A program made the position numbers and the translations under genes. Positions 3,174-59,010 of a DNA stretch of 64,000 nt are shown piece after piece. The notes beneath the pieces are model-generated. The model searched no databases and had not been told where the DNA came from. It saw nothing but the letters and a program-made list of their open reading frames with translations. Origin of the DNA: Methanobacteriota archaeon (GTDB lineage Archaea > Thermoplasmatota > Poseidoniia > Poseidoniales > Poseidoniaceae). The DNA lies in NCBI GenBank assembly GCA_018662825.1, contig JABJFI010000095.1, positions 1,204 through 65,203 on the forward strand. The letters run 5' to 3'. How positions within the stretch are numbered: position 1 is the first letter of the stretch; each line of letters starts with the position of its first letter.

Positions 3174-3710
3174 ATGACGCGGATTACCGTTTCAGGCCAT
3201 CCGGGAAGCGGCACAAGTACCTTAGTGAGTGGTTTAGTCAAACACTTTGGATGGACTTCACTCAACGGTGGCGACATTTTTCGAAATGAAGCGGCACGAC
3301 GTGAAATGAGTCTTCATGACTTTGGAATACTTTGCGAACAAGACCTTGAAGTGGACCGTGCATTGGACAAACTTCTGCAAGAACAAATGCTCTCCGATTC
3401 TGCAGATATTGTTGAATCGAGATTAGCAGGATGGTGGGCATATCGATTGCAAATTCCATGTGTTCGGCTTTGGCTTGAAGTGGATGAACATGAACGAGCA
3501 AAACGTGTGGCAAATCGTGAAGGAGATTCTATAGAAGAGGCACTGATTGCCAATAAACAACGTTCAAACATTGATGCTGGACGATTTATGGAACTGTATC
3601 AACTACTCCCTGAGCAGCGTGAACCCTATACCTCATTACTTGACGCAACAAACCTTGGCAGTGAAGAAGTTCTTGCTGCTGCTATCGAAATATTGGAGAA
3701 ATCCCTATGA
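3174..3710 (+). CDS. cmk: Cytidylate kinase, archaeal type
   Basis: P-loop ITVSGHPGSGTSTL at the N-terminus, about 180 aa, archaeal cmk-like body. The ATG at 3174 is preferred over the track GTG at 3162, which overlaps the previous stop. Confidence 0.85.
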   Translation: MTRITVSGHPGSGTSTLVSGLVKHFGWTSLNGGDIFRNEAARREMSLHDFGILCEQDLEVDRALDKLLQEQMLSDSADIVESRLAGWWAYRLQIPCVRLWLEVDEHERAKRVANREGDSIEEALIANKQRSNIDAGRFMELYQLLPEQREPYTSLLDATNLGSEEVLAAAIEILEKSL

Positions 3711-4675
3711 CACAACACATCCTTGACACCACCGCTTCGACCAATCCCGCAATTGGCGGGAACCCTGATGCACGAGATGTTGAAGAGCGTCTTGCGTCTG
3801 GATTTATTCTGCTCGACAAACCTGCAGGGCCAACATCTCATCAACTTGCATCGTGGGCTCGTGACCTGTTTGGTCTAGAGCGTTTGGGCCATGGTGGCAC
3901 CCTTGACCCCTTTGCAACAGGTGTCCTACCACTGATGGCTGGAAAGGCAATGAAAGTAACCAAAAAAATTCTCACACACAAGAAGACCTACATTTGTGTG
4001 TTTCGATTTGCAACACTGCCGGACCAAAGTCGGCTTGCAGAGGTCATGAGACAACTAACTGGCCGTGTCTACAATGTCCCTCCGGAAGTTTCTGCCGTTA
4101 AGGTTCAAGTTCGAACTCGAAAAATTTTCACCTTTGAAAATATTGAAATCAAAGGAAATGACATGATAGCCCGTGTCCATTGTGAAGCAGGCACATATAT
4201 TCGTACAATGGCACGTGATCTCGGTCTGCTTTTGGACATGAAAGTTCAGTTGAAGGAACTACGCCGAGAAACTTCTGGTGTATTCAACCTAGAAGACTGT
4301 ATCACTATGCAAGAATTGGCCGATGCAGTCTGGCTCTGGAAAGAGTGCGACAAACCAGAGGCACTACTACGAATCATTCATCCGATTGAAAAAATATTGC
4401 TTGACTTGCCAACTGCTACTGTGAAGGACAGTGCTGCTGCTGCCTTGGCCCATGGTGCACCTCTTTTGCGACCTGGGCTCATCAACATTCAATCGGGTGT
4501 AAAGGCTGGCAAAGAAATAATGATTCAAACGCTTAAAGGCGAGGCTGTTGGAATTGTAACGCTCACGCTCAATACTGATGAAATCGCTACTATTAACGAA
4601 GGTGAAGTTGCTCGACCAAATATGGTCTTGCTCGATGAGGGGTTATACCCTCGCCGCTGGAAGTCTCCAGAGTGA
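3707..4675 (+). CDS. cbf5: tRNA/rRNA pseudouridine synthase Cbf5 (H/ACA RNP catalytic subunit, TruB family with PUA domain)
   Basis: LLDKPAGPTSHQ...GHGGTLDPFATGVLPL catalytic Asp motif. C-terminal PUA-like region (AAALAHGAPLLRPG...). ATGA overlap with the cmk stop. Confidence 0.9.
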   Translation: MTQHILDTTASTNPAIGGNPDARDVEERLASGFILLDKPAGPTSHQLASWARDLFGLERLGHGGTLDPFATGVLPLMAGKAMKVTKKILTHKKTYICVFRFATLPDQSRLAEVMRQLTGRVYNVPPEVSAVKVQVRTRKIFTFENIEIKGNDMIARVHCEAGTYIRTMARDLGLLLDMKVQLKELRRETSGVFNLEDCITMQELADAVWLWKECDKPEALLRIIHPIEKILLDLPTATVKDSAAAALAHGAPLLRPGLINIQSGVKAGKEIMIQTLKGEAVGIVTLTLNTDEIATINEGEVARPNMVLLDEGLYPRRWKSPE

Positions 4676-4843
4676 ATCAAATTTGATTCTCAAGCTTCAA
4701 CGTATTCTTCGTAAATATATTCGTCTGTTTCTATTCGTATTTTCAATACTGACATGATTCCCACATCCACTTTGTCAACGGGTGTTGAACGGCCCCCACG
4801 GCCTCAAAGCAAGTTTTTGTGAGACGGTCCCCCTATCAAGTTT

Positions 4844-4899
4844 GAGGGTGTTTTTCGCGTTATCCGTCATCAGAGGGTGTTTTTGAATCGGAATACACT
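4844..4899. repeat. Word repeats: GAGGGTGTTTTT x2 (4844-4855, 4873-4884), then TGAAT, then GAATACACT (4891-4899)
   Basis: Read directly. The same words recur at 7321-7346. The T5 runs may also act as oligo-T terminators for cbf5. Confidence 0.7.
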
Positions 4900-4909
4900 G
4901 ACAATAAAT

Positions 4910-7303
4910 TCACTGCAATTTCTTGATTTTTGGTGGAGTTAAGAAAACGAAAAATCCACCGATTGCCAAAAGAGATACAATCGTAAGACCCCAAAACATT
5001 CCGTCAGAAATAGCCGCTCTATTTGATTGAACATTATTCGAACTTAGTGCAGGTTCAATCGCAACAGCCAACAAGCCTTCATTGTTATCTTCTTGACCTT
5101 CTGTAATTTCCAAACCTCGGTCGATAACTGCACGAATCTGAACCTGCTCCTTGCCTTCCGGAACCTGCCAATCACATGTGACATATGCGACATTGCCCGG
5201 TTCAAGCAGTGGAAGGGTTTCATAATCAATTAATTCCGAATTTGATTCACATCTAACTGAAATCAAACTTGCTTGGGCTTGGCCGATATTTCGGACAAGT
5301 ACTCGGATGGAGACTATATCGCCAGCACGAATCACATCATCTCCAAGGTCAATTTCTTCGACAATAAGGTCGGGCAGAGAAAGAACTTCAAGGTCAAGGA
5401 TTCGTTCGTGGCACGATGTTTGGTCACAAAGAGAAATAAGGGCTGAAGTAAAACCAGGGCTTGGTGCGTTGATCATGAGTGTTTTATTGAATACATCAAC
5501 GGTGATCCAAGAACGATTGGAGGATGCTGTTAGGCCTGTCGAATCTACATCAGAATAATCAAAAGCAATCTCTGTCGGAATAGATAATTCAACAGGAACT
5601 AGTGATTGAAATTCCTGAAGGACTGGTGTGTCGTCAATGTTCTGCACATTGACAATGAACACTTCGACCCAAGTATTACCCGCCGAGTCCGAGACCGTGG
5701 TTTGAATTGATGCTTGCCCCGAAGATTCTGGTTGAAGTGATAGACGTACATCTCCTTCGGTTAAGTCCACCACGACGAGTTCCGGATTTGAATTAGAAAA
5801 CTCAACTTGTAGATTTTCGTAAGACGTTCGGTCATCGGTACAGCGGTATAAGAATGGCAAAATGCGTCCACCTCCATCTTCGGTCAAGGATTGATCTCCT
5901 ACGGGAATACATACAGGATTTTCATCCCATTCAATTTCGTAACCACCGGTTATCGAAATAGAAGTAACCTCAAAGGCGGTGGTACTTTCATTACCTTGAG
6001 AATCCCAAGTAAACCAAGATTTCAGTTCAACCTTAACCGAAGTATCCCCAGCAGACATATATTTGCCAATTGGAAATGAGAGGGATAAGGAGGGCGACAA
6101 TGCCACCGGTTGATTGGTCACCAATTCATCATTGACAAATAGTAGCCAACGTGAATAAACTGAGTCAAGACCATCGACATCACCGAATATTCGACCTTGC
6201 AATGAAAGAGTTGGGTCATTCACATCGACGGTAATCGAAGTAATACACGCTTCAATTGTAGATATTCGAAGTTGAGTGAAAGGGTGGTCTGGAAGCAACA
6301 TATGCTCATCCATTGCGGAAAATTCAGAAAACGAAATGCCATCATCTGAAAAAGAATATTCCAGTATCACGTCGTCAAGTGATTCATTGTCCAAAGTGAA
6401 GTGTGGTCTTCCGATACGCTGGTTTGGGGGTGTTTCGATAATTTCACTAGTCCAACGGCCAGATGAACCTGGTATGCTAGATTGCAGGCCGCATTCTGCT
6501 AGCGCCATATTTTCTGAACTACCCAACATCAAATCAAGTCCAATGATTGGCATATCATGACCCGAGAATTGAGCTTGAGCAGAACCGTATTCACCACCAT
6601 ACCATGGTGTCTTCATGACAACTTTAATACCAACTGCATCGACATTTAATTGTGAATCATCGGTTGTTCCGACCGAGACATAATCCAATGTCATGACCGA
6701 GTTTTGTATCATGTTCCAATCCCAAGTGGTTAGTTCTGTCACATTGTATGTCCAAGAATTTGAAAGATAATCAAGAGCACCTTGAGTGTGCGCAAAAGTG
6801 GTAAGTGGCTCATATTGGCCATCATAATTGAGTGAAAATCGCACCGAATCTTGGTACAGTGGGTCTGGGACTGAAAAAGCAACTACAACATTGACGGCCA
6901 AAATATCATAGCCCGTGGAACCAAAAGCATTGAATGAAGATAATTTTATTTCAGGTCCAGTCGACCACGATGTTGCACCATCGGGAGTACCGATTGAGTT
7001 ATTGGAGTCGGTTGGAGAGGATTGTGCCCAAAATATCATGCTGTCTTGATTAAGTGGACGATGGTGAATCATTGTTAGACGTTGGTCAGCGACCATGGCA
7101 TCTGTATAGGATGCTGGGTCTTCAGAAAAAGAGGTAAATGCTCCGAGTGTCCAATTTTCAGTGTGTGAAAAATCTCCTTCAGGGAAAATATCGACAAGAT
7201 TAGTTTGATGAACTGAACGTGCAGAAACTGCGCTATATGGCGCAAGAAGCAATAAAAAGAGCATAAAAATTACGGTCGAATTCTTCGAATATGAAACTCC
7301 CAT
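4910..7303 (-). CDS. Large secreted surface protein with membrane-proximal CARDB-like domain and C-terminal TM anchor
   Basis: Signal-peptide-like MGVSYSKNSTVIFMLFLLLLAPYSAVSA from the ATG at 7303 (the track start 7405 is GTG). CARDB pattern DLIVEEIDLGDDVIRAGDIVSIRVLVRNIGQ...EGQEDNNE. C-terminal WGLTIVSLLAIGGFFVFL plus KIKK. Confidence 0.7.
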   Translation of the reverse strand: MGVSYSKNSTVIFMLFLLLLAPYSAVSARSVHQTNLVDIFPEGDFSHTENWTLGAFTSFSEDPASYTDAMVADQRLTMIHHRPLNQDSMIFWAQSSPTDSNNSIGTPDGATSWSTGPEIKLSSFNAFGSTGYDILAVNVVVAFSVPDPLYQDSVRFSLNYDGQYEPLTTFAHTQGALDYLSNSWTYNVTELTTWDWNMIQNSVMTLDYVSVGTTDDSQLNVDAVGIKVVMKTPWYGGEYGSAQAQFSGHDMPIIGLDLMLGSSENMALAECGLQSSIPGSSGRWTSEIIETPPNQRIGRPHFTLDNESLDDVILEYSFSDDGISFSEFSAMDEHMLLPDHPFTQLRISTIEACITSITVDVNDPTLSLQGRIFGDVDGLDSVYSRWLLFVNDELVTNQPVALSPSLSLSFPIGKYMSAGDTSVKVELKSWFTWDSQGNESTTAFEVTSISITGGYEIEWDENPVCIPVGDQSLTEDGGGRILPFLYRCTDDRTSYENLQVEFSNSNPELVVVDLTEGDVRLSLQPESSGQASIQTTVSDSAGNTWVEVFIVNVQNIDDTPVLQEFQSLVPVELSIPTEIAFDYSDVDSTGLTASSNRSWITVDVFNKTLMINAPSPGFTSALISLCDQTSCHERILDLEVLSLPDLIVEEIDLGDDVIRAGDIVSIRVLVRNIGQAQASLISVRCESNSELIDYETLPLLEPGNVAYVTCDWQVPEGKEQVQIRAVIDRGLEITEGQEDNNEGLLAVAIEPALSSNNVQSNRAAISDGMFWGLTIVSLLAIGGFFVFLTPPKIKKLQ

Positions 7304-51720: not shown

Positions 51721-52332
51721 TCATTCATCTTCAAGTGCATTGACAACAGACAGCAACTCTTCGTCACCATCAGCGATTTCTTCCGCGCCATTGGAGTCCT
51801 CTACAAAACTCATATCCATTGCTTCAAAAGGATTGATTCCATCTTCGAGTTGGCAGAGTAAGCGCCAACGTGGAGCCCACGAAAGATGGACATACATCGG
51901 GCCGGGAAGTAAGAGTAAGAGCCAAATTAATCCCGCTGGAAGTGTCAATATTCCTGTTTGAGAAATCGTTAACAAACCAAATCCAACAAATGGCATTGGA
52001 TAGAGAATTGAACGAGGCGGCGTTACAGGGAAACGCTTTGAGATACTAACGATGATTAAAGAAAGCATACCTAGAAGAAGGCAAGCGGCTATGATGAGGG
52101 CAGAATGGAACACCCAATTGGTGAACCAACTGCTAGATTCATTGCCAAATCGGTAAGGCAGAAGCAAAGCGAGTGAAACCAAAAGGCCGTAAAATGCTGA
52201 AATATTTGATGGATGCGAAAGCCAAAGTGGTAATGTGGTGAAGCGTCGAGAAAGAGATGTACCTAAGAGCGTTTCCCGTTCTTTTGAACCGAGACCATCA
52301 AGGTGACCTTGCCATCTACTAGTGGATTCCAC
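51721..52332 (-). CDS. Hypothetical polytopic membrane protein with acidic C-terminus
   Basis: 4-5 hydrophobic helices. No motif recognised. Confidence 0.45.
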   Translation of the reverse strand: MESTSRWQGHLDGLGSKERETLLGTSLSRRFTTLPLWLSHPSNISAFYGLLVSLALLLPYRFGNESSSWFTNWVFHSALIIAACLLLGMLSLIIVSISKRFPVTPPRSILYPMPFVGFGLLTISQTGILTLPAGLIWLLLLLPGPMYVHLSWAPRWRLLCQLEDGINPFEAMDMSFVEDSNGAEEIADGDEELLSVVNALEDE

Positions 52333-52391: not shown

Positions 52392-53078
52392 TTATTCTCT
52401 GCGAAATTTACTAATCAACCCTTCAGGCTCAATTTCGATTGAATCCTGTTCCTCAAGCCATGAACGTTCAAGAAGTCCTGAATCTTGCTGCTCTCGTTCA
52501 CGGGCAGACTCGATTGAATCTTCGGTACCATTTACTGCATCGCGCAGTGCAATGGCCTGATTTATGAGCATGACATAGCGTTTCAGTACTGGATGTGTTT
52601 CGGGTAATGAACTGAAATGCCCGATGGGCGCATAGGTGTCGTCGTCACGAATTAGAATAGAGCCTCCTACCAATTCATCTACGGTTAATCGAACTCTTCC
52701 TTCACCCACATCACCCCATGTTCCATCTGAAAACTTTACCATTACAACCGCCGCACCAAGACCAAGGTCGTCCATAAATGGATGATTCATATTAACGGCC
52801 AAAGGTACTTGGAGCATTGGAGACTTCAGATAGATGAAGTAAGCGCCAATTGAACCAATGAATACGAGTCCAATAGCGGCGAGGAGACTACTACCCAAAG
52901 AGATGTTACTTTGAGAGAAGCCCATACTCTCAGAGAGAAACGACAGTAGACCAGCAAAGAGAACCAAATAGATGAAAAGAATACCAAGAAATCGGTACAC
53001 GAATGGTCGTGCGATATCCAAGGAATTGAAGCGTCGCATTTCAACAGACAATTCGCCTCGCGTCTCGCCCATATTCAA
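52392..53078 (-). CDS. Hypothetical two-TM membrane protein with cytoplasmic beta-rich domain
   Basis: TMs FLGILFIYLVLFAGLLSFL and LLAAIGLVFIGSIGAYFIYL, then a soluble domain. Divergent from the 53243 operon. Confidence 0.5.
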   Translation of the reverse strand: MNMGETRGELSVEMRRFNSLDIARPFVYRFLGILFIYLVLFAGLLSFLSESMGFSQSNISLGSSLLAAIGLVFIGSIGAYFIYLKSPMLQVPLAVNMNHPFMDDLGLGAAVVMVKFSDGTWGDVGEGRVRLTVDELVGGSILIRDDDTYAPIGHFSSLPETHPVLKRYVMLINQAIALRDAVNGTEDSIESAREREQQDSGLLERSWLEEQDSIEIEPEGLISKFRRE

Positions 53079-53242
53079 CCATCACCTTGCCGTCTTTCAA
53101 CTTCACGGTGATTTGTCAGAACATAAAAGAGAAATTAAGTCGGCTCACCAAACTGATGAAAGAAAAGACCCATTCTGTGTTCATTCGAGCCGCACCTTTC
53201 AAGAAGTGCCAAGTGAGCATCACCCCGTAGGGGTGGGGAAAT

Positions 53243-55240
53243 ATGGTTGAACTACCGCAGGGAGATGTTACAGAAGTTCGCCGTGGCGGACCCGAATCTT
53301 TGCAAATATTGTCAACGGATATAGCCCGTTTAGGGACCACTGGATATATCCGAATCGAGCGGCGCCCAAAAGAGCAAATGCCCCGCATTGGCCACATAGC
53401 ATTTCTAGAAGGTAAACCGATGTTTGCTTTGCATGAAGCAGATGCAATTGCAATGTCACTTGAGGCCTTACTGGACATTGAAAGCGATGCTGCACTTCTT
53501 GATGCTTTGCTCGCCATTCATGAATTGCCAATTCCTGATTTGAATCAATTACTCAGTCTTCACCAAGAAGCGCATTTCCAAATCGATGACCAATCTGAGC
53601 AAAACGATAACGGGCATCAATGGTGGTCTAAATCGAAATTGCGAACAAGTTCTTGGCGACGTCAAGAACGCTTACCTGAACTGGAAGTTGTAGTTGAAGC
53701 TCCAGAGGTGATTCGCCAGCGAAGTAAAGCACTACTTCAGCGATTTGAAGGAATAGAAAAAATGTTGCGCCCCGGTGATGCATATTTTTTCGACTCCAAT
53801 GACCCTGCACCCCTATTCGATCTTGCTGGCCACTTAGCCGTTCATGGCCGCCCCTTGTTCGTACTTGCACGGCACGATATTGAGGCACTCAATGTAGAAC
53901 ATAACATCCCAATTGCATCGAGTTCGTGGTTATCTCAAAACGGCGACGTCCGCTCTACTGAGCCCGCATTAGAAAACATTCGTCGCAAAATAGATGCATT
54001 TCTTTGGGAAAATCTCCGGGCCGTAGTGGTTCTCGAAGGTGTAGAATATCTTGCCAGCCTCCATGGGGATGACCTCGTCGTTAATTTCCTTAGAGATATT
54101 GTTGATGGAGTGCGTCTTGAGGACCATGTGTTCTTGGCAACTGGAGATTTTAATGCGTTCCCTCTAACGACGCGCCAACATTTGTCACGTTACATGACTG
54201 ACCTTGAATCATCGGTATTGGAACATTGGAATCTTGAACCTGACCTCATACTCGACCACCCGCTATGTGCGCCTCCAAGTGAAGAAGAGACGAAATGGAT
54301 TGAACAACAATTACAATTAGCAATTTCCGACTCGAATCCAGGTGATCTTTCTCCACAAAGTACGGTATTCGGAACGATGGAAGGTGGCCTTGAAACTCCA
54401 GATTCTGAAGATATTTTGGCTGCAACAGAATCGCTTGATAATGTGATACGTGAATGGTCTCAACCCGCAGCAATTGACCCTCAAGAGGTCATACAGTCGG
54501 AACAAGAAATATCGATTGCCGTTTCAGGCCCTCTAGAGGGAGAACAAACTCATCAAAACGAGATACCTGCTCCTCAACAAGGTGCTGATTCGATAGATGA
54601 AAAGGAACAGGACATTATTCAAACAGAAGCAAAGCAGAAGGCCGAACCTATCGAAATCCCCGTTGTACAAATCGCCAAGGACGTTGAAAAAATAATTGCA
54701 CCACGAACTGCACAGCGTATCCGACGTCGCCGAAAAACCCCCACTCATCGAACCAAACCCCGTAATCAACAGGGAATACAGGCGGCAGTTGTGCAGGCCA
54801 TTGAGGCAAAAGAGTTGAAGGGTATTGAAAGTGAATATTCAAGTCGGCGAAGTGGCTTTTCCAAATCACTTGAAGCGTATGCAAATCGCCAAGAGAGGGC
54901 TGTTGAAAATATGCGTGTTAGAGCAACAGCAAAAAGTGACTCCTCACTCAATGATGCAACTCGCCAACACATCAATCGCCAAGAATTGAATCTCCCTGAA
55001 ACACCCCTCCCTAATCGTTCTCTTGAATCAGTGAAGGGCCGACAACCCGTCAATACCCAGACAATACTCACACCTCTAATGGCCCGTCCCGGTGCGTCAA
55101 GTTCAACGCCATCAAAGGATGTCATACGCGAGTCGGCTTCACGTCAACAGTCCGAATCGACCATTGAATCAAAACTCAGCATATGGGAGATTGAAGACCG
55201 TGAACGATTGAGAAAGGAAGCGGAGGGTACGAAGAAATGA
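53243..55240 (+). CDS. DUF835-like domain protein (N-terminal about 100-aa domain, DUF835-like core at aa ~176-322, long charged low-complexity tail)
   Basis: GDAYFFDSNDPAPLFDL...GRPLFVLARHD...SSWLS...EPALENIRRKIDAFLWENLRAVVVLEGVEYLASLHGDDLVVNFLRDIVDGV...FLATGDFNAF matches my memory of archaeal DUF835 (G.sylv......glcitR..P....WLs....P..L.....i..F.....vvlldglEYL...ngF..vlkFl..l.d). Confidence 0.6.
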   Translation: MVELPQGDVTEVRRGGPESLQILSTDIARLGTTGYIRIERRPKEQMPRIGHIAFLEGKPMFALHEADAIAMSLEALLDIESDAALLDALLAIHELPIPDLNQLLSLHQEAHFQIDDQSEQNDNGHQWWSKSKLRTSSWRRQERLPELEVVVEAPEVIRQRSKALLQRFEGIEKMLRPGDAYFFDSNDPAPLFDLAGHLAVHGRPLFVLARHDIEALNVEHNIPIASSSWLSQNGDVRSTEPALENIRRKIDAFLWENLRAVVVLEGVEYLASLHGDDLVVNFLRDIVDGVRLEDHVFLATGDFNAFPLTTRQHLSRYMTDLESSVLEHWNLEPDLILDHPLCAPPSEEETKWIEQQLQLAISDSNPGDLSPQSTVFGTMEGGLETPDSEDILAATESLDNVIREWSQPAAIDPQEVIQSEQEISIAVSGPLEGEQTHQNEIPAPQQGADSIDEKEQDIIQTEAKQKAEPIEIPVVQIAKDVEKIIAPRTAQRIRRRRKTPTHRTKPRNQQGIQAAVVQAIEAKELKGIESEYSSRRSGFSKSLEAYANRQERAVENMRVRATAKSDSSLNDATRQHINRQELNLPETPLPNRSLESVKGRQPVNTQTILTPLMARPGASSSTPSKDVIRESASRQQSESTIESKLSIWEIEDRERLRKEAEGTKK

Positions 55241-57273
55241 GTGTTCGTCGAGAAAAATTAGCTCTTGCACTAGAACTTGCGAAGCAGCGACTCAATGTAT
55301 CGGATTCTGGAATAAATAGGATTTCATCGTCTCCAAAAACAGAATCCGAGCAACCGAAATCAAAAATGAACCGGCTGCTCGGAAAGAACGATGCCAGGGA
55401 TAGCCGGCAAGGCACATTACTGCAAAGAACCAGGGTTGTCGAACGTCCAACATTTGATTTAGTTGCAGACAATGTATTAGGTAAGGAAAGCAAACAACGC
55501 AGACCAACGATTCAACTCACCTCGAACGGGGATTCTCTCGCAGATATCGCGGCACGTAGAATTCGCTCACTACGGCAACGCACGTTTGAACAAATAGAGC
55601 GGCAGGGCGATGAAGAAATTGAAGACGGTTACTTTGGGATGGAGGATGATGGACGACCTGTGTGGGAAAGTATTCTCGATGAACATCGTGGGAGAACTGT
55701 TCCGTCCTTAGCACCAGAATTTGCCCCTGTTGAATCAAACTCTCCTTTTCACCATGATGTCATCATTCCAATCGAGGGAAATTGGCCTCAGCGTTTACGT
55801 CCAGAGACTCGAATGAGTTTCAAGCAATGGTTCACCACTGAAGGTAATATTAGAGCCACTCAAGCTGCTGAAGCAATTGTAGACACGCCTGGTGGCCCGT
55901 TAAATCCAATGCTCTTTATTGGTGCATCAGAAACGGGATGTTCACATCTATTACATGCCACTGCTCAAGCTGTTCTTCGACGTCAAGAAGGAAACGTTCA
56001 TCTCCTCTCCGCTGCTGATTTTTCGGGATTGGAACACCTTCCCGAAGGCTGGCAAGATTCACTGGCAAATGCAAGAATGCTTGCTCTAGATGATGTTCAC
56101 GAATATGCTGACAATGCCAATTTGGCTCATGAAATTGGCACCATGGTTGATTATGCACTCAATATGGGAGTTCATGTAATTCTTTCTTCACATTCGGAAC
56201 CACAGACTTGGCCAACATCCCGATTATGGGAATTAACTAGGCATGCGGCTTCTGTACATCTTGGCATTCCAAAACCCGCCAGTATGGTGTTGTACGCACG
56301 AAATTTGGCTCAGAAAAAGGGATTATTGCTAGATGATGGACAACTTGCAAGCATTGTATTGCAGGACTCTGTCGGTTGGCGTGCAACAAAAGCCAACTTC
56401 GACTTGGTTGCTCTTGCTCTTCAATCAGGACGTGAAGTTCTTGATGGAGATGATGTGACTACACTTCTCTCAAACCTTGTCGAAGACGATATCGTTGTGC
56501 CAATTGAACGAGAAAATGTTGAAGATATCGCTACTCGGCTGATTTCTAACGCTGTCGATACCGTTTACAGTGACAGCGTACATGGAGGAATCGACCTATA
56601 TTCAGAACTTCCAGAAATTGGAGGTGACGCGTATCAGCCCCCCGAACTCGATATTGCTGCAATGACCCAGAATGCAGATGAAAGACATGCTGCTCACCTC
56701 AAAATTGCACTGGAAGACACTGCTCCTGCTGCACCGTCAGTCTTAGCACTCCATGAACGCGATGAACACCTCATCACCCGTAAAGGCCATATTGAAGAGC
56801 AAGATTATGGCCGTGCTGCCGACATTCTTACCGATTTAGATGAGGCGTTTGATACTCAAATCAATGCTTTTGAACATGATTTACGTCAAAGTTCATTGCA
56901 ACTTGCAAACATCGAACACACATTGATGAATCTTCATGAACGGACGCCTGATGCATCAATGGACGAATTAATTTCGATTGCGGATGAATTAAGAGCATTA
57001 GAAGAAAATCTCACTGAATTTGACCCCGAACGTGAACCTTGGCCACAGATGGAGGAGGATACAATTCAAAAGAAACCGCGGCGAAGAGTTGCCCGACGAA
57101 AAGGCAAATCTCGCGAGAAAACTTTGGAAAGCCATGAACCTGAAGGCGAATGGAATATTGATGCACAAAAAGTAGACATGCTGGATTTACTTGAAGGAGA
57201 ATCGGTGGGTCGAACAATTCGGCTTGGTCGAATCAAAGCAGTCAATTCACCCGTTCTAGGTGAAGAAGAATGA
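55237..57273 (+). CDS. DnaA/Hda-like AAA+ domain protein with lysine-less Walker A, disordered N-terminus and acidic coiled-coil C-terminus
   Basis: aa 193-411: MSFKQWFTTEGNIRATQAAEAIVDTPGGPLNPMLFIGASETGCSHLLHA / ARMLALDDVHEY / GVHVILSSHSEP / TSRLWELTRHAASVHLGIPKP / lid KKGLLLDDGQLASIVL. Colinear with DnaA domain III and E. coli Hda (GAGRSHLLHA). Confidence 0.55.
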   Translation: MSVRREKLALALELAKQRLNVSDSGINRISSSPKTESEQPKSKMNRLLGKNDARDSRQGTLLQRTRVVERPTFDLVADNVLGKESKQRRPTIQLTSNGDSLADIAARRIRSLRQRTFEQIERQGDEEIEDGYFGMEDDGRPVWESILDEHRGRTVPSLAPEFAPVESNSPFHHDVIIPIEGNWPQRLRPETRMSFKQWFTTEGNIRATQAAEAIVDTPGGPLNPMLFIGASETGCSHLLHATAQAVLRRQEGNVHLLSAADFSGLEHLPEGWQDSLANARMLALDDVHEYADNANLAHEIGTMVDYALNMGVHVILSSHSEPQTWPTSRLWELTRHAASVHLGIPKPASMVLYARNLAQKKGLLLDDGQLASIVLQDSVGWRATKANFDLVALALQSGREVLDGDDVTTLLSNLVEDDIVVPIERENVEDIATRLISNAVDTVYSDSVHGGIDLYSELPEIGGDAYQPPELDIAAMTQNADERHAAHLKIALEDTAPAAPSVLALHERDEHLITRKGHIEEQDYGRAADILTDLDEAFDTQINAFEHDLRQSSLQLANIEHTLMNLHERTPDASMDELISIADELRALEENLTEFDPEREPWPQMEEDTIQKKPRRRVARRKGKSREKTLESHEPEGEWNIDAQKVDMLDLLEGESVGRTIRLGRIKAVNSPVLGEEE

Positions 57274-57737
57274 GAGCACCTTGGTGGATGAAAGGTGTTG
57301 GCTTTTCCTGTCAAGCGAATTGTGGCAAATGTTGTGATGAGCCGGGTGGAATTGTCTATCTCTCTGTTACCGATGCTGAACGAATCTCCTCCGAAAATGG
57401 CTTGGATGTCGCTGAATGGCTAGAACGTGATTGCCGTCAAACCCTCGATGGAAGATACATACTGAAAAGTCGGCCTGTAGACGATGTTTGCATCTATTTG
57501 GACGATAACAAACAATGTATGATCTATTCATCGCGTCCTCAACAGTGTGCTGCATTCCCATGGTGGGGTGAAAATTTGGCAACTGAACGAGCCTGGAATA
57601 AGGTAAAAGATGAATGCCCCGGACTTACAGCAGATGATGCTATTATCATCGAAGGTGAAACGATTAGAATCCATGTTTTTGCTGACCGAGAGTCGACCAA
57701 AGGGTTCCGTTCTTGGCCGCCTTGGAACAAAAGATAG
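57270..57737 (+). CDS. YkgJ/UPF0153-family CxxCxxCC zinc/iron-chelating protein
   Basis: FSCQANCGKCCDEPGG N-terminal motif plus a later Cys (DDVCIYLDDNKQCMIY...CAAFP). ATGA overlap with the preceding gene. Confidence 0.7.
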   Translation: MRAPWWMKGVGFSCQANCGKCCDEPGGIVYLSVTDAERISSENGLDVAEWLERDCRQTLDGRYILKSRPVDDVCIYLDDNKQCMIYSSRPQQCAAFPWWGENLATERAWNKVKDECPGLTADDAIIIEGETIRIHVFADRESTKGFRSWPPWNKR

Positions 57738-57843
57738 ATATTGAAAATACTCAAAATTCCTTTACTTACGATGCTCAAATATTGTATATAGAGGAGCCGA
57801 CTTTATACGAAAGGGGTATGTGGGGGGTATCGAGGGGGATTCA

Positions 57844-59010
57844 ATGACTAATAATGAGGTGCTTTTGGAAATAACAGAGAAGCATCTTAATACCGGACTT
57901 CGTGGTGTTCCCGTCGGTACATGTCGCACTTCTTTCGTCACACCTTCTGAAGGCGTTCATTACTGTGGATATCCAATTGCTGAATTGGCTAAATTTGAAC
58001 CAGAAGATATTGTGTATCTATTGTTTAACAAGGAATTGCCGAATGCTGAACAATCTGCAGCCATACGTCAAGACCTTGCAGCACGTGCTGCCCTCCCGGG
58101 AGATGTGGAATCAGTACTCAAAACTCTACCAAAATTTGGCCACCCAATGGACTGGTTGAGTGTTGGCATTCATACACTCGGAATGATTGACACGACCAAT
58201 GATTGGATGGAGGATGCACTCAACCTTATTGCCCGTATGCCGCGATTAATGGGGCTTATTTTCAGAATCAGAGATGGCCGAGAACAAAACATTCCAGCTG
58301 ATGACCCAACTCTTTCAATGGTCGACCGTTTTGTTAACACACTCGATTTACACGATTCTGACAATGCAATAATGAGGCAAATCATCTCAACTTATCTTGT
58401 GCTCCACATGGACCACGGAGGCGGAAACCTGTCGACCTTTGCGGGCAAGGCAATTGCATCGAGCAAGGCAACTGTTTATTCGGCTATGGCCGGGGCAATG
58501 AATGCATTATCAGGACCATTGCATGGTCGAGCAAATCAATCCTGCTTGGAATTTGTTCTGAAAGTTGGAACTAGTGACCCTGTTGAAGTCGAGGCTTTTG
58601 TTCGAGCAGAATTGGCAGCTAACCGCCCGATATTTGGGTTTGGCCATGCAGTTCTTCGTTCCGAAGACCCACGCGCTACTGTTCAATTCGACTTGGGTTC
58701 AAAACTCTGCCCCGATGATGAAAATTTCAAGATAATTACTACTCTTCGTGAAGTTGCACCTCGAGTTCTCGCTGAGAATCCAAAAATTAGTAATCCTAAT
58801 GCCAATGTGGACATTTCCAGTGGTGCTTTACTCCACCACGCAGGACTTACTGACCCGACATATTATACTACATTCTTCGGATGGGCACGAGTTGCTGGAA
58901 TTGGTGCTCAAATTGTCGATGAGCGTACTGTATTCCGTGATGGAAAGGGAATTCCGATTTACCGTCCAAAATATATTGCTGAAGCCCAAACATTGCGCCA
59001 TATTGAGTGA
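57844..59010 (+). CDS. gltA: Citrate synthase family enzyme (citrate or 2-methylcitrate synthase)
   Basis: GLRGVPVG, YCGYPIAEL, HMDHGGGNLSTF, SGPLHGRAN, FGFGHAVLRSEDPR, NVDISSG. ATG at 57844 preceded by GAGGGGGAT. Confidence 0.85.
   Translation: MTNNEVLLEITEKHLNTGLRGVPVGTCRTSFVTPSEGVHYCGYPIAELAKFEPEDIVYLLFNKELPNAEQSAAIRQDLAARAALPGDVESVLKTLPKFGHPMDWLSVGIHTLGMIDTTNDWMEDALNLIARMPRLMGLIFRIRDGREQNIPADDPTLSMVDRFVNTLDLHDSDNAIMRQIISTYLVLHMDHGGGNLSTFAGKAIASSKATVYSAMAGAMNALSGPLHGRANQSCLEFVLKVGTSDPVEVEAFVRAELAANRPIFGFGHAVLRSEDPRATVQFDLGSKLCPDDENFKIITTLREVAPRVLAENPKISNPNANVDISSGALLHHAGLTDPTYYTTFFGWARVAGIGAQIVDERTVFRDGKGIPIYRPKYIAEAQTLRHIE

What the first reader, a model, noticed from the sequence alone, without database searches (positions are those of the whole stretch)
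53221..57737. Translationally coupled DUF835-like / DnaA-Hda-like / CxxCxxCC three-gene operon of unknown function
Three plus-strand ORFs are chained by ATGA stop/start overlaps (55237-55240 and 57270-57273), and a GGAGGGT SD sits 8 nt before the second start. They almost certainly form one expression unit. Gene 1 (665 aa) has an N-terminal domain (GTTGYIRIE...GHIAFLEGKPMFA), a core that fits the archaea-specific DUF835 pattern, and about 340 aa of charged low complexity. Gene 2 (678 aa) carries a DnaA domain-III/Hda-like AAA+ module flanked by disordered and acidic coiled-coil regions. Gene 3 is a YkgJ-type CxxCxxCC metal-binding protein. I know of no described system with this composition. 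The DnaA/Hda clade is regarded as bacterial, whereas archaea initiate replication with Orc1/Cdc6. A perfect 6-bp GC hairpin (CACCCC-GTA-GGGGTG, 53221-53235) buries the SD-like GGGGTG 8 nt before the first ATG, hinting at translational control. This is the best candidate in the window for an undescribed regulatory or switch module.
Basis: partly seen in the sequence, partly recalled or inferred. Interest (0 to 1): 0.7.

Follow-up and report, generated by a model that had tools for sequence, protein, structure and literature searches.

The report
Conserved archaeal DnaA-like/KaiC-like gene trio
Marine Group II archaea (Poseidoniales) all carry a tightly coupled gene set for a dead KaiC-like protein, a mostly dead copy of the bacterial DnaA ATPase module and a cysteine-cluster protein; its role is unknown but it is probably a signalling or scaffold unit, not a replication initiator.

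Summary
Three + strand genes (53243-55240, 55237-57273, 57270-57737) overlap by ATGA and have upstream Shine-Dalgarno (SD) sites. Pfam places them in DUF835, Bac_DnaA and CxxCxxCC, each above its curated cut-off.

Gene 2's core is a DnaA domain III fold: the top 15 Foldseek hits are DnaA or Hda. It lacks domains I and IV. Its Walker A lysine is Cys here, and Arg or Cys in 68 of 83 relatives.

Gene 1 is an inactivated KaiC/RecA-like domain behind an N-domain with a weak, unproven PATAN likeness.

The trio is present and overlapping in about 80 Poseidoniales species, down to 25-29% identity. The whole 8-gene block is also syntenic, so adjacency alone proves little. In one divergent lineage gene 3 is inverted.

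In 6 of 6 bacterial loci examined, proteins with two DnaA-like domains lie beside PATAN-TPR, Roadblock, small-GTPase-like and, in two loci, Che genes. So DnaA-type modules do occur in non-replicative signalling contexts.

The upstream hairpin is real and kept in about half the lineages, but it is not energetically unusual and shows no covariation.

No publication was found. Function is inferred, not shown.

The parts
53190..53205 (+). Conserved upstream box CCGCACCTTTCAAGAA, about 38-53 nt before the gene 1 ATG. Either a promoter element or a specific regulator site.
   Evidence: Nearly invariant in the upstream regions of about 70 Poseidoniales loci. It occurs only once in the 64-kb window, even allowing 2 mismatches.
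53221..53235 (+). Inverted repeat CACCCC-GTA-GGGGTG. The right arm is the SD-like GGGGTG(G), 7 nt before the ATG.
   Evidence: Sequence. Kept in loci L001-L047 with variable loops (GTA, GAA, AAA, TAC), decayed or absent in other clades. 87.9% of cells are paired, but shuffles do as well (222/500). Only one two-sided change was seen. Fold z-score 0.21.
53243..55240 (+). Gene 1, 665 aa. N-domain (res 1-110, tentatively PATAN/DUF2226-like), conserved WW..W.R..RLPE.E..VEAPE linker, inactivated KaiC-like DUF835 core (about res 175-335, nt 53765-54247), and about 330 aa of charged low-complexity tail with a basic patch.
   Evidence: Pfam DUF835 hit. AF2 model has mean pLDDT 77.9. Best Foldseek hits are FlaH/ArlH, KaiC CI, RecA, PH0250 and BcsE at about 1e-4. 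The model runs strand 180-184, loop 185-188, helix 189-200. By homology with KaiC/RecA I place the P-loop in that loop. The surrounding sequence (res 181-202) reads AYFFDSNDPAPLFDLAGHLAVH, with no GxxGxGK[ST]. N-domain: weak DUF4388 and DUF2226 hits and hhalign P about 0.03.
55222..55228 (+). SD GGAGGGT for gene 2, inside the end of gene 1.
   Evidence: A GGAGG- or GGTGA-type SD precedes the gene 2 start in nearly all loci.
55237..57273 (+). Gene 2, 678 aa. N-terminal helix plus a disordered region with conserved short motifs; DnaA-domain-III-type AAA+ base and lid (about res 188-400, nt 55798-56436; Walker A G234-C235-S236-H237, Walker B D285-D286, R329, W381-R382); conserved 428-470 motif; long helices 522-595 (nt 56800-57021); basic patch; acidic tail ending GEEE.
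   Evidence: Pfam and NCBIfam. PDB profile search: B. subtilis DnaA domain III at E 3.9e-12, DnaC at 8e-4. AF2 core pLDDT is 80-90. The Foldseek top 15 are DnaA or Hda, with TM 0.78-0.79 to isolated domain III. No Bac_DnaA_C hit at E<=1. Motif counts.
57259..57273 (+). Junction GGTGAAGAAGAATGA. It encodes the Gly-Glu-Glu-Glu-stop of gene 2 and also carries the SD (GGTGA), spacer and ATG of gene 3.
   Evidence: the same 15-mer, with synonymous variants, recurs in about 75 loci. In L091 gene 3 is inverted and gene 2 ends ...MSDED instead.
57270..57737 (+). Gene 3, 155 aa. A YkgJ-type CxxCxxCC cysteine-cluster protein that probably binds a metal or an Fe-S cluster.
   Evidence: Pfam PF03692 at 40.9 bits. 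Eight cysteines are invariant in 79 orthologues: C14, C18, C21, C22, C74, C83, C93, C116. No related solved structure was found by sequence.

Best explanation
This is a vertically inherited operon found across the Poseidoniales. Its core is two degenerate P-loop NTPase-fold proteins.

- Gene 1 is an inactivated KaiC-like (DUF835) protein with a small N-terminal interaction domain and a long charged tail.
- Gene 2 is a DnaA-domain-III-type AAA+ module. It has lost the DnaA DNA-binding domain and, in most species, the catalytic Walker A lysine. It has gained disordered regions with conserved short motifs and long helices that look like a coiled coil.
- Gene 3 is an 8-cysteine YkgJ-type protein. 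It is translated from the same mRNA in all loci examined except L091.

Shown: the anatomy, the folds, the order-wide conservation and the conserved translational coupling.

Inferred: the two pseudo-NTPases form a complex that acts as a nucleotide-binding (not hydrolysing) assembly switch or scaffold in signal transduction. The cysteine-cluster protein may supply a redox or metal input. Two analogies support this. DUF835 serves as an output domain of archaeal response regulators. In bacteria, proteins with two DnaA-type AAA+ domains are translationally coupled to PATAN-TPR proteins within MglA/MglB-like and Che gene clusters.

It is not a replication initiator.
For: Operon:
- ATGA or near-overlap junctions with SD sites recur in about 70 or more species.
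- The trio persists at 25-32% identity in L081, L082, L090 and L091.
- Residual divergence of genes 1, 2 and 3 is mutually correlated (partial r 0.71-0.73), against 0.06-0.39 with the two upstream membrane genes. This test is crude and the points are not phylogenetically independent.

Folds:
- Gene 2 resembles DnaA domain III and Hda.
- Gene 1 resembles the KaiC/RecA/FlaH fold and has no P-loop.
- DUF835 is listed as an inactivated KaiC output domain in REC-DUF835 response regulators (PMC5847659).

Not an initiator:
- No domain IV hit.
- DnaA and Hda equivalog scores are 45.5 and 39.8 bits, against cut-offs of 343.9 and 194.8.
- The Walker A lysine position is R in 49, C in 19 and K in 15 of 83 loci. 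The Cys in this window is also present in an independent 99%-identical protein.
- No replication gene appears in the neighbourhood.

Signalling analogy:
- In 6 of 6 loci examined, bacterial proteins with two DnaA-like domains lie with PatA_N-TPR, Roadblock and small-GTPase-like genes; Che genes join them in two loci.
- The PATAN domain is an output domain that binds the PilB1 ATPase (bioRxiv 10.1101/2021.06.11.447907).
Against: - No experiment or expression data bear on function.
- The PATAN likeness of the gene 1 N-domain is not significant: 13.6 bits against a cut-off of 25, and hhalign P about 0.03.
- The NJ tree shows no specific kinship between gene 2 and the two-domain bacterial proteins, so the analogy is a parallel, not orthology.
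- The whole 8-gene block is syntenic, so adjacency alone is weak evidence.
- Basal lineages keep an intact GKT, so the ancestor, and some living members, may be active ATPases.
Confidence: 0.45

Rival explanations
1. Replication or cell-cycle regulator. Gene 2 would be an archaeal functional analogue of Hda: a DnaA-type AAA+ module without a DNA-binding domain. It would dock onto the initiator-clade ATPase Orc1/Cdc6, or onto DNA through its basic patches, and modulate initiation. The KaiC-like partner would provide timing or signal input.
For: - The best sequence and structure matches are DnaA domain III and Hda, ahead of other AAA+ proteins.
- Walker B DD is near-invariant, and box VII-like R329 and sensor II-like W381-R382 are largely conserved.
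- Hda itself acts through AAA+ to AAA+ contacts rather than DNA binding (established knowledge).
- Genes 1 and 2 both carry Arg/Lys-rich patches.
Against: - No replication genes or origin features lie in the conserved neighbourhood.
- No PCNA-binding PIP box was seen by eye; no formal scan was run.
- The Hda and DnaA equivalog cut-offs are missed by a wide margin.
- In the profile alignment, the residue aligned to the DnaA arginine finger is hydrophobic.
- The bacterial two-domain DnaA-like proteins show that this module also occurs outside replication.
Confidence: 0.2
2. The functional unit is genes 1 and 2 only. Gene 3 would be a housekeeping cysteine-cluster protein that shares the transcript because the genome is compact.
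For: - Gene 3 is far more conserved than genes 1 and 2: 65-91% identity, against 27-73% and 37-86%.
- It is inverted onto the other strand in L091 while genes 1 and 2 stay adjacent on the same strand, 34 nt apart rather than overlapping.
- None of the six bacterial loci has a CxxCxxCC gene.
Against: - The ATGA overlap and SD are kept in about 75 loci.
- Gene 3 stays adjacent even after inversion.
- Its residual divergence correlates with genes 1 and 2 (partial r about 0.7, crude).
Confidence: 0.3
3. Accidental juxtaposition. Three unrelated genes would be kept side by side only by the generally conserved gene order of Poseidoniales.
For: The flanking aminotransferase, two membrane-protein genes, citrate synthase and GDPD genes are equally syntenic. 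Four-base overlaps are common in compact genomes.
Against: - Genes 1 and 2 remain adjacent on the same strand where the neighbourhood is otherwise changed: a DUF309 insertion in L081, and gene 3 inversion with a GDPD/MFS shuffle in L091. They overlap in L081 but are separated by 34 nt in L091 and about 258 nt in L090.
- Both are fast-evolving, lineage-specific proteins with correlated divergence.
Confidence: 0.07
4. Anti-phage defence system or mobile-element cargo.
For: AAA+ and KaiC-like NTPases occur in defence systems. There is one sub-threshold PADLOC hit (mad8, E 0.0023, 15.5 bits).
Against: - There is no real PADLOC match.
- The chromosomal position is fixed among housekeeping genes in about 80 species.
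- Phage records match only generic DnaA-like segments at 23-24% identity.
Confidence: 0.02

Closest known systems
Bacterial DnaA domain III and Hda (initiator-clade AAA+)
   Same: - AAA+ base plus lid fold. The Foldseek top 15 are DnaA or Hda, and TM to isolated domain III is 0.78-0.79.
- Pfam Bac_DnaA is above its cut-off.
- The N-P-L...G..G.[ST]H P-loop frame, Walker B DD, box VII-like Arg and sensor II-like Arg are retained.
   Different: - Found in archaea.
- No domain I and no DNA-binding domain IV.
- 678 aa, with long disordered and helical extensions.
- Walker A Lys is replaced by Arg or Cys in 82% of loci.
- The region between beta2 and Walker B is shorter.
- Scores are far below the DnaA and Hda equivalog cut-offs.
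- It forms its own long-branch clade.
DUF835 / inactivated KaiC (iKaiC) domains of archaeal response regulators, and KaiC-like signalling hubs (Galperin et al. 2018, PMC5847659, which cites Makarova et al. 2017)
   Same: - Pfam DUF835 match.
- RecA/KaiC/FlaH-like fold without a P-loop.
- A small N-terminal domain precedes the DUF835 domain, as REC does in REC-DUF835 proteins.
   Different: - The N-domain is not a recognisable REC domain: no CheY-type hit in Pfam or PDB.
- It has a long charged tail.
- It is translationally coupled to a DnaA-like AAA+ gene, which I did not find reported for DUF835 proteins.
Bacterial PATAN-TPR / Roadblock (MglB-like) / small GTPase (MglA-like) clusters. The PATAN-MglB link is known (Makarova 2006, cited in PMC4316618).
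   Same: - A DnaA-domain-III-type AAA+ gene overlaps the start or stop of a gene whose product begins with a PATAN domain. The latter is certain in the bacteria and only tentative in gene 1.
- The context is non-replicative.
   Different: - The bacterial proteins have two DnaA-like domains with intact GKT and strong Bac_DnaA scores (276 bits).
- The gene order is reversed: AAA+ first, then PATAN.
- The partner carries TPR repeats, not iKaiC.
- GTPase, Roadblock and Che genes are absent from the archaeal locus.
- No specific phylogenetic affinity was seen.
YkgJ / CxxCxxCC (PF03692) cysteine-cluster proteins
   Same: Pfam match above the cut-off, with the CxxxCxxCC motif plus four further invariant cysteines.
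   Different: The family itself has no established function. The coupling to a DnaA-like gene appears specific to this lineage.

Membership tests
DnaA (chromosomal replication initiator, TIGR00362 equivalog) | Whole-protein score at or above the curated equivalog cut-off | tested here: not met
   45.5 bits against a cut-off of 343.9.
DnaA (chromosomal replication initiator, TIGR00362 equivalog) | C-terminal DNA-binding domain IV (Bac_DnaA_C) and N-terminal domain I | tested here: not met
   No Pfam hit other than Bac_DnaA at E<=1. The PDB profile match covers only domain III, query residues 181-391. The modelled C-terminal part is long helices and disorder.
DnaA (chromosomal replication initiator, TIGR00362 equivalog) | AAA+ domain III fold of the initiator clade | tested here: met
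   The Foldseek top 15 are DnaA or Hda, E 2e-11 to 3e-8, TM 0.78-0.79 to 8bv3_A and 2z4r_A. Profile against PDB gives E 3.9e-12.
DnaA (chromosomal replication initiator, TIGR00362 equivalog) | Catalytic Walker A GxxGxGK[ST] | tested here: not met
   The window has G-C-S-H with Cys235 (codon TGT). Across 83 loci the position is R in 49, C in 19 and K in 15.
Hda (TIGR03420 equivalog) | Score at or above the cut-off, and a single-domain protein of about 230-250 aa | tested here: not met
   39.8 bits against a cut-off of 194.8. The protein is 678 aa with large extensions.
Hda (TIGR03420 equivalog) | N-terminal beta-clamp-binding motif and stimulation of DnaA-ATP hydrolysis | not testable with these tools
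   Archaea have PCNA and Orc1/Cdc6 instead.
Pfam Bac_DnaA domain (PF00308) | Score at or above the gathering threshold | tested here: met
   40.1 bits against 23, residues 191-324. All close homologues carry PF00308 in the precomputed annotation.
DUF835 / iKaiC (PF05763) | Score at or above the gathering threshold | tested here: met
   34.2 bits against 33.1 in the window, which is marginal. Orthologues score 48.5 and 65.7 bits, while the Poseidonia-type orthologues fall below threshold.
DUF835 / iKaiC (PF05763) | RecA/KaiC-like fold lacking the P-loop | tested here: met
   Foldseek hits: FlaH (4yds), KaiC CI, RecA and PH0250 at E about 1e-4. The loop where I place the P-loop, by homology with KaiC/RecA, holds no GxxGxGK[ST] (sequence; model).
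PATAN / DUF4388 (PF14332), for the gene 1 N-domain | Significant profile match | tested here: inconclusive
   - The best Pfam hit is 13.6 bits, E 0.07, against a cut-off of 25. Only 2 of 27 orthologues match. DUF2226 also matches 2 of 27, best E 0.008.
- hhalign against bacterial PATAN alignments gives P 0.026-0.034.
- The motif order (helix, TG.L.V strand, G.I.F..G strand..A strand) agrees with the model's secondary structure.
CxxCxxCC / YkgJ (PF03692) | Score at or above the gathering threshold, and a conserved cysteine pattern | tested here: met
   40.9 bits against 23. Eight cysteines are invariant in 79 orthologues.
Known anti-phage defence systems (PADLOC) | Match of any of the three proteins to a defence-system model | tested here: not met
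   The only hit is mad8 at E 0.0023, 15.5 bits, with no passing stretch.

The most novel reading that the evidence does not exclude
A DnaA-derived AAA+ module was fixed in the ancestor of Marine Group II archaea. Together with an inactivated KaiC, it works as a cell-cycle or replication-timing switch: an archaeal counterpart of Hda-type control acting on Orc1/Cdc6, possibly tied to the day-night physiology of these photoheterotrophs. Alternatively, pairing of a PATAN-like domain with a DnaA-type ATPase is an ancient signalling module shared by bacteria and archaea that has not been described in either.
Probability: 0.12. Interest if true: 0.85.

Novelty: new variant of a known kind. Interest (0 to 1): 0.6.

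Why it matters
- Poseidoniales are among the most abundant archaea in the surface ocean, and none has been cultured.
- A gene set kept in every lineage, built from a module regarded as the hallmark of bacterial replication initiation, points to an unrecognised piece of their cell biology.
- It shows that DnaA domain III has been reused outside replication. Together with the bacterial PATAN/MglA-MglB clusters seen here, this suggests a wider class of DnaA-derived signalling ATPases and pseudo-ATPases.
- The natural K to R to C series at the Walker A lysine is a ready-made set of variants for asking whether nucleotide binding without hydrolysis is enough for function.
- Pipelines label these proteins 'chromosomal replication initiation ATPase DnaA'. 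That label is misleading for genome-based inference about archaeal replication.

Tried and rejected
- Sequence search of the gene 1 profile against PDB found nothing meaningful. The same search with the N-domain gave only E about 0.7-1 hits to PilF GSPII and a designed thioredoxin, judged spurious.
- Gene 3 against PDB gave no hit.
- hhalign of the N-domain against single PATAN proteins was not significant. Against PATAN alignments it gave P about 0.03, treated as inconclusive.
- The gene 1 profile found no relative among the genes of bacterial loci L084 and L086, the only two scanned.
- Covariation test of the hairpin: no signal beyond shuffles. Energy z-score 0.21. The claim of translational control is therefore not endorsed.
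- Rfam at permissive E on 52900-58000 found nothing.
- PADLOC found nothing. The phage collection gave only generic DnaA-like pieces. The defence and mobile-element readings were rejected.
- The NJ tree was built to ask whether gene 2 is sister to the bacterial two-domain proteins. It was unresolved: the Poseidoniales form a separate long-branch clade.
- In the full-library search the two-domain proteins outrank canonical DnaA only because their two domains add up. Per domain, canonical DnaA scores as well or better. I therefore dropped the idea that the two-domain proteins are the closest relatives.
- Makarova et al. 2017 (mBio) could not be read because it is not held.
- Literature searches for DUF835, Poseidoniales or Marine Group II with DnaA, DUF4388 with AAA+, and DUF2226 returned nothing relevant beyond PMC5847659.
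Full report
**1. What is in the sequence**

Three + strand ORFs occupy 53243-55240 (665 aa), 55237-57273 (678 aa) and 57270-57737 (155 aa).
- Both junctions are ATGA stop/start overlaps.
- GGAGGGT lies at 55222-55228, 8 nt before the second ATG. GGTGA lies at 57259-57263, 6 nt before the third ATG.
- The inverted repeat CACCCC-GTA-GGGGTG is at 53221-53235, 7 nt before the first ATG.

**2. Domain identities**

- Gene 1: DUF835, E 2.5e-8, 34.2 bits against 33.1, residues 197-306.
- Gene 2: Bac_DnaA, E 5.7e-10, 40.1 bits against 23, residues 191-324.
- Gene 3: CxxCxxCC, E 3.5e-10, 40.9 bits against 23.

The DUF835 call is marginal in the window. It is strong in orthologues (48.5 and 65.7 bits) and below threshold in the Poseidonia-type orthologues.

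NCBIfam's DnaA and Hda equivalog models match gene 2 only locally. The scores are 45.5 and 39.8 bits, against cut-offs of 343.9 and 194.8.

**3. Gene 2 in detail**

*Fold*
- A profile of 42 family members matches B. subtilis DnaA domain III at E 3.9e-12 over query residues 189-388. DnaC follows at 8e-4.
- The AF2 model has pLDDT of 80-90 across about residues 220-410.
- The first 15 Foldseek matches in the PDB are all DnaA domain III or Hda, E 2e-11 to 3e-8. TM is 0.78-0.79 to the isolated domain III structures. Generic AAA+ proteins start at about 1e-7.

*What is missing or added*
- There is no domain IV. No Bac_DnaA_C hit appears at E<=1, and the C-terminal third is modelled as long helices (522-569, 575-595) and disorder.
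- The N-terminal 180 residues are mostly low-confidence but hold invariant short motifs.

*The catalytic site*
- The Walker A lysine position is Cys235 in this window (codon TGT). An independent 99%-identical metagenomic protein has the same residue, so this is not a sequencing error.
- Across 83 loci the position is Arg in 49, Cys in 19 and Lys in 15.
- In the same 83 loci Walker B D285-D286 is near-invariant (D285 in 82, D286 in all). R329, R335 and W381-R382 are largely kept.
- A divergent lineage (L091) has an intact GVGKTH.

So an ancestral ATPase has lost its catalytic lysine in most of the order. By established AAA+ knowledge, a Lys-to-Arg change usually abolishes hydrolysis and may spare binding. 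The consequence here is inferred, not measured.

**4. Gene 1 in detail**

*Core domain*
- The AF2 model of residues 1-345 has mean pLDDT 77.9.
- It consists of an N-domain (strands and helices to residue 106), a disordered but sequence-conserved linker (WW..W.R..RLPE.E..VEAPE), and an alpha/beta core.
- The best PDB matches of the core are FlaH/ArlH, the KaiC CI domain, RecA, PH0250 and BcsE, at E about 1e-4.
- The model has a strand at 180-184, a loop at 185-188 and a helix at 189-200. By homology with KaiC/RecA I place the P-loop in that loop. The surrounding sequence (181-202) reads AYFFDSNDPAPLFDLAGHLAVH and holds no GxxGxGK[ST].
- This fits the published view of DUF835 as an inactivated KaiC-like output domain in REC-DUF835 response regulators of Methanomicrobia and Thermoplasmata (PMC5847659).

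*N-domain*
- It shows the pattern helix, TGY(I/L)R(I/V) strand, G.I.F..G strand, ..A strand. From memory this resembles PATAN (DUF4388) and DUF2226.
- The tests were weak. DUF4388 scored 13.6 bits at E 0.07, and DUF2226 reached E 0.008, each in only 2 of 27 orthologues. hhalign against bacterial PATAN alignments gave P 0.026-0.034.
- I treat the likeness as a lead, not a finding.

*Tail*
- The remaining ~330 residues are charged low-complexity sequence with a conserved basic patch.

**5. Gene 3**

Eight cysteines are invariant in 79 orthologues: C14, C18, C21, C22, C74, C83, C93 and C116. No solved structure is related by sequence. By family annotation it probably binds a metal or an Fe-S cluster. 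Its function is unknown.

**6. Distribution and linkage**

*Who has it*
- Gene 2 homologues come from marine metagenomes. The few that carry an organism name are Poseidoniales or unclassified Euryarchaeota MAGs.
- In one genome per GTDB species, 183 stretches encode a relative. The best 80 are all Poseidoniales or MGII MAGs, apart from one contig labelled Verrucomicrobiales that carries the same archaeal block.

*Adjacency*
- Wherever a contig is long enough, genes 1, 2 and 3 are adjacent and on one strand.
- However, the whole 8-gene block is equally syntenic: aminotransferase, two small membrane-protein genes on the minus strand, the trio, citrate synthase and GDPD. Adjacency alone is therefore weak evidence.

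*Stronger evidence*
- Junction geometry. Genes 1 and 2 overlap by 4 nt in most loci; in others the offset is -1, +2, -8 or -14 nt. A GGAGG- or GGTGA-type SD sits upstream. Genes 2 and 3 share GGTGAAGAAGAATGA, with synonymous variants, in about 75 loci.
- Persistence at low identity and in altered surroundings.
  - L081 (63% GC, 27-29% identity) has a DUF309 gene inserted upstream.
  - L082/L083 and L090 also keep the trio.
  - In L091, GDPD and an MFS gene are shuffled and gene 3 is inverted, yet gene 1 is still followed by gene 2.
- Correlated divergence. After regressing on three flanking genes, residual divergence of the three genes is mutually correlated (r 0.71-0.73). With the two upstream membrane genes it is 0.06-0.39. 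This is a crude measure based on one reference, and the points are not independent.

*Gene 3 is the weakest member.* It evolves much more slowly than genes 1 and 2 and is inverted in L091.

**7. A by-product: why gene 2 ends in GEEE**

The near-invariant C-terminus Gly-Glu-Glu-Glu is encoded by the same 15 bases that form gene 3's SD (GGUGA), spacer and AUG. In L091, where gene 3 is on the other strand, gene 2 ends ...MSDED. Synonymous GAA/GAG changes that keep Glu occur. Both protein-level and RNA-level constraints may therefore act.

**8. Upstream region**

- The palindrome is kept in loci L001-L047 with variable loops (GTA, GAA, AAA, TAC). It is weaker or absent elsewhere.
- Pairing holds in 87.9% of cells, but shuffles reach this value in 222 of 500 trials, because the 3' arm is the invariant SD. 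Only one two-sided change is seen.
- The local fold energy is ordinary, z = 0.21.
- A second element, CCGCACCTTTCAAGAA (53190-53205), is nearly invariant across the whole order and occurs once in the window.
- If that box is the TATA-like element, transcription would start inside the palindrome. The palindrome would then act as a DNA site rather than an RNA hairpin. Only 5'-end mapping can decide this.
- Rfam finds nothing here.

**9. Relatives outside the order**

- A full-library HMMER search with the gene 2 profile found 7294 proteins at E<=1e-3 and 66 at E<=1e-30.
- After the Poseidoniales family come ~650-aa proteins with two DnaA-like domains, and then canonical DnaA.
- Per domain, canonical DnaA scores as well as the two-domain proteins.
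- An NJ tree puts all Poseidoniales sequences in one long-branch clade with no resolved partner.
- The two-domain proteins are still informative. All six whose loci I could inspect sit in the same cluster: PatA_N(PATAN)-TPR, TPR, Roadblock/LC7 (twice), a ~200-aa small-GTPase-like protein, the two-domain DnaA-like protein, then an overlapping PatA_N-TPR gene. CheA/CheC or CheR/CheD/CheB genes lie alongside in two loci.
- PATAN-MglB neighbourhoods are known (PMC4316618). PATAN is an output domain that binds the PilB1 ATPase.
- I found no mention of the DnaA-like component in the searchable literature.

**10. Interpretation**

*Shown:* a conserved, co-translated operon. Gene 2 is a member of the DnaA-type AAA+ domain family but is not an orthologue of DnaA or Hda. 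Gene 1 is an inactivated KaiC-like protein.

*Inferred as most likely (about 0.45):*
- The two pseudo-NTPases form a nucleotide-binding scaffold or switch in signalling.
- The cysteine-cluster protein is a possible redox or metal input.
- The disordered tails and basic patches are the output surfaces.

*Rivals:*
- An Hda-like regulator of Orc1/Cdc6 or of the chromosome (0.2).
- A two-gene unit with gene 3 as a passenger (0.3; this is compatible with either of the readings above).
- Accidental juxtaposition (0.07).
- Defence system or mobile element (0.02).

**11. Novelty and limits**

- The three domain families are known, and automated pipelines already label gene 2 'DnaA ATPase domain-containing protein' or 'chromosomal replication initiation ATPase DnaA'.
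- What appears undescribed:
  - the order-wide trio;
  - the architecture of gene 2;
  - the loss of its catalytic lysine;
  - the parallel with the bacterial PATAN clusters.
- The literature check covers only open-access full text and bioRxiv. The key KaiC review could not be read.
- No interaction, expression or biochemical evidence was available.

Noticed in passing
window 53190-53205: The box CCGCACCTTTCAAGAA upstream of gene 1 is nearly invariant across about 70 Poseidoniales loci from both families. It occurs only once in the 64-kb window, even with 2 mismatches allowed. It could be a specific regulator site or an unusual promoter element shared by the divergent gene pair.
   Followed up: partly
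window 57259-57273; L091:2781-5446: The invariant GEEE C-terminus of gene 2 is encoded by the same bases as gene 3's SD, spacer and start (GGTGAAGAAGAATGA). In L091 gene 3 is inverted, and there gene 2 ends ...MSDED and keeps an intact Walker A GKT.
   Followed up: yes
L084:237-6110, L086:4640-10159, L087:1363-8271, L088:492-10730, L089:1348-7775: A conserved bacterial cluster, seen in all six loci inspected (the sixth was listed without DNA). Its order is PATAN-TPR, TPR, two Roadblock/LC7-like genes, a ~200-aa small-GTPase-like gene, a ~650-aa protein with two DnaA-domain-III-like AAA+ domains, then an overlapping second PATAN-TPR gene. Che genes lie next to it in two loci. Close homologues of the L086 PATAN domain are labelled Gemmatimonadota or Burkholderiales MAGs. 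I found no description of the DnaA-like component.
   Followed up: partly
window 51721-52332 (-) and 52392-53078 (-): Two small predicted membrane proteins (203 and 228 aa) are transcribed divergently from gene 1. They have no Pfam match, are conserved in position across the order, and have acidic C-termini (..ALEDE in the window, ..LSEEE in L081). Their divergence does not track that of the trio.
   Followed up: partly
window 57820-57848: The citrate synthase ORF is listed from GTG at 57820. Orthologue alignments mostly begin near residue 6-9, and a TTTATA box lies at about 57803-57808. The real start is therefore probably the ATG at 57846 (MTNNEV...), behind a GAGGGGGA SD.
   Followed up: no
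L075 (NZEQ01000009.1): This contig is labelled 'Verrucomicrobiales bacterium' but carries the Poseidoniales genes 2 and 3, citrate synthase and GDPD in the usual order. It is probably a mis-binned archaeal contig.
   Followed up: no
L069 and L078, about 3600-6040; L081:1400-1801: Insertions lie between the upstream membrane-protein gene and gene 1: about 2.4 kb in two Poseidoniales genomes and a DUF309 gene in L081. The divergent pair is therefore not always contiguous, while the trio stays intact.
   Followed up: no
window 55939-55941 (codon 235 of gene 2): The Walker A lysine position shows a lineage pattern: Lys in some clades, including the divergent L091 and L082; Arg in most; and Cys arising at least twice. 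One Cys origin is the Poseidonia-type clade, which has also lost the first P-loop Gly. The other is this window's lineage, whose 87%-identical relative still has Arg.
   Followed up: partly
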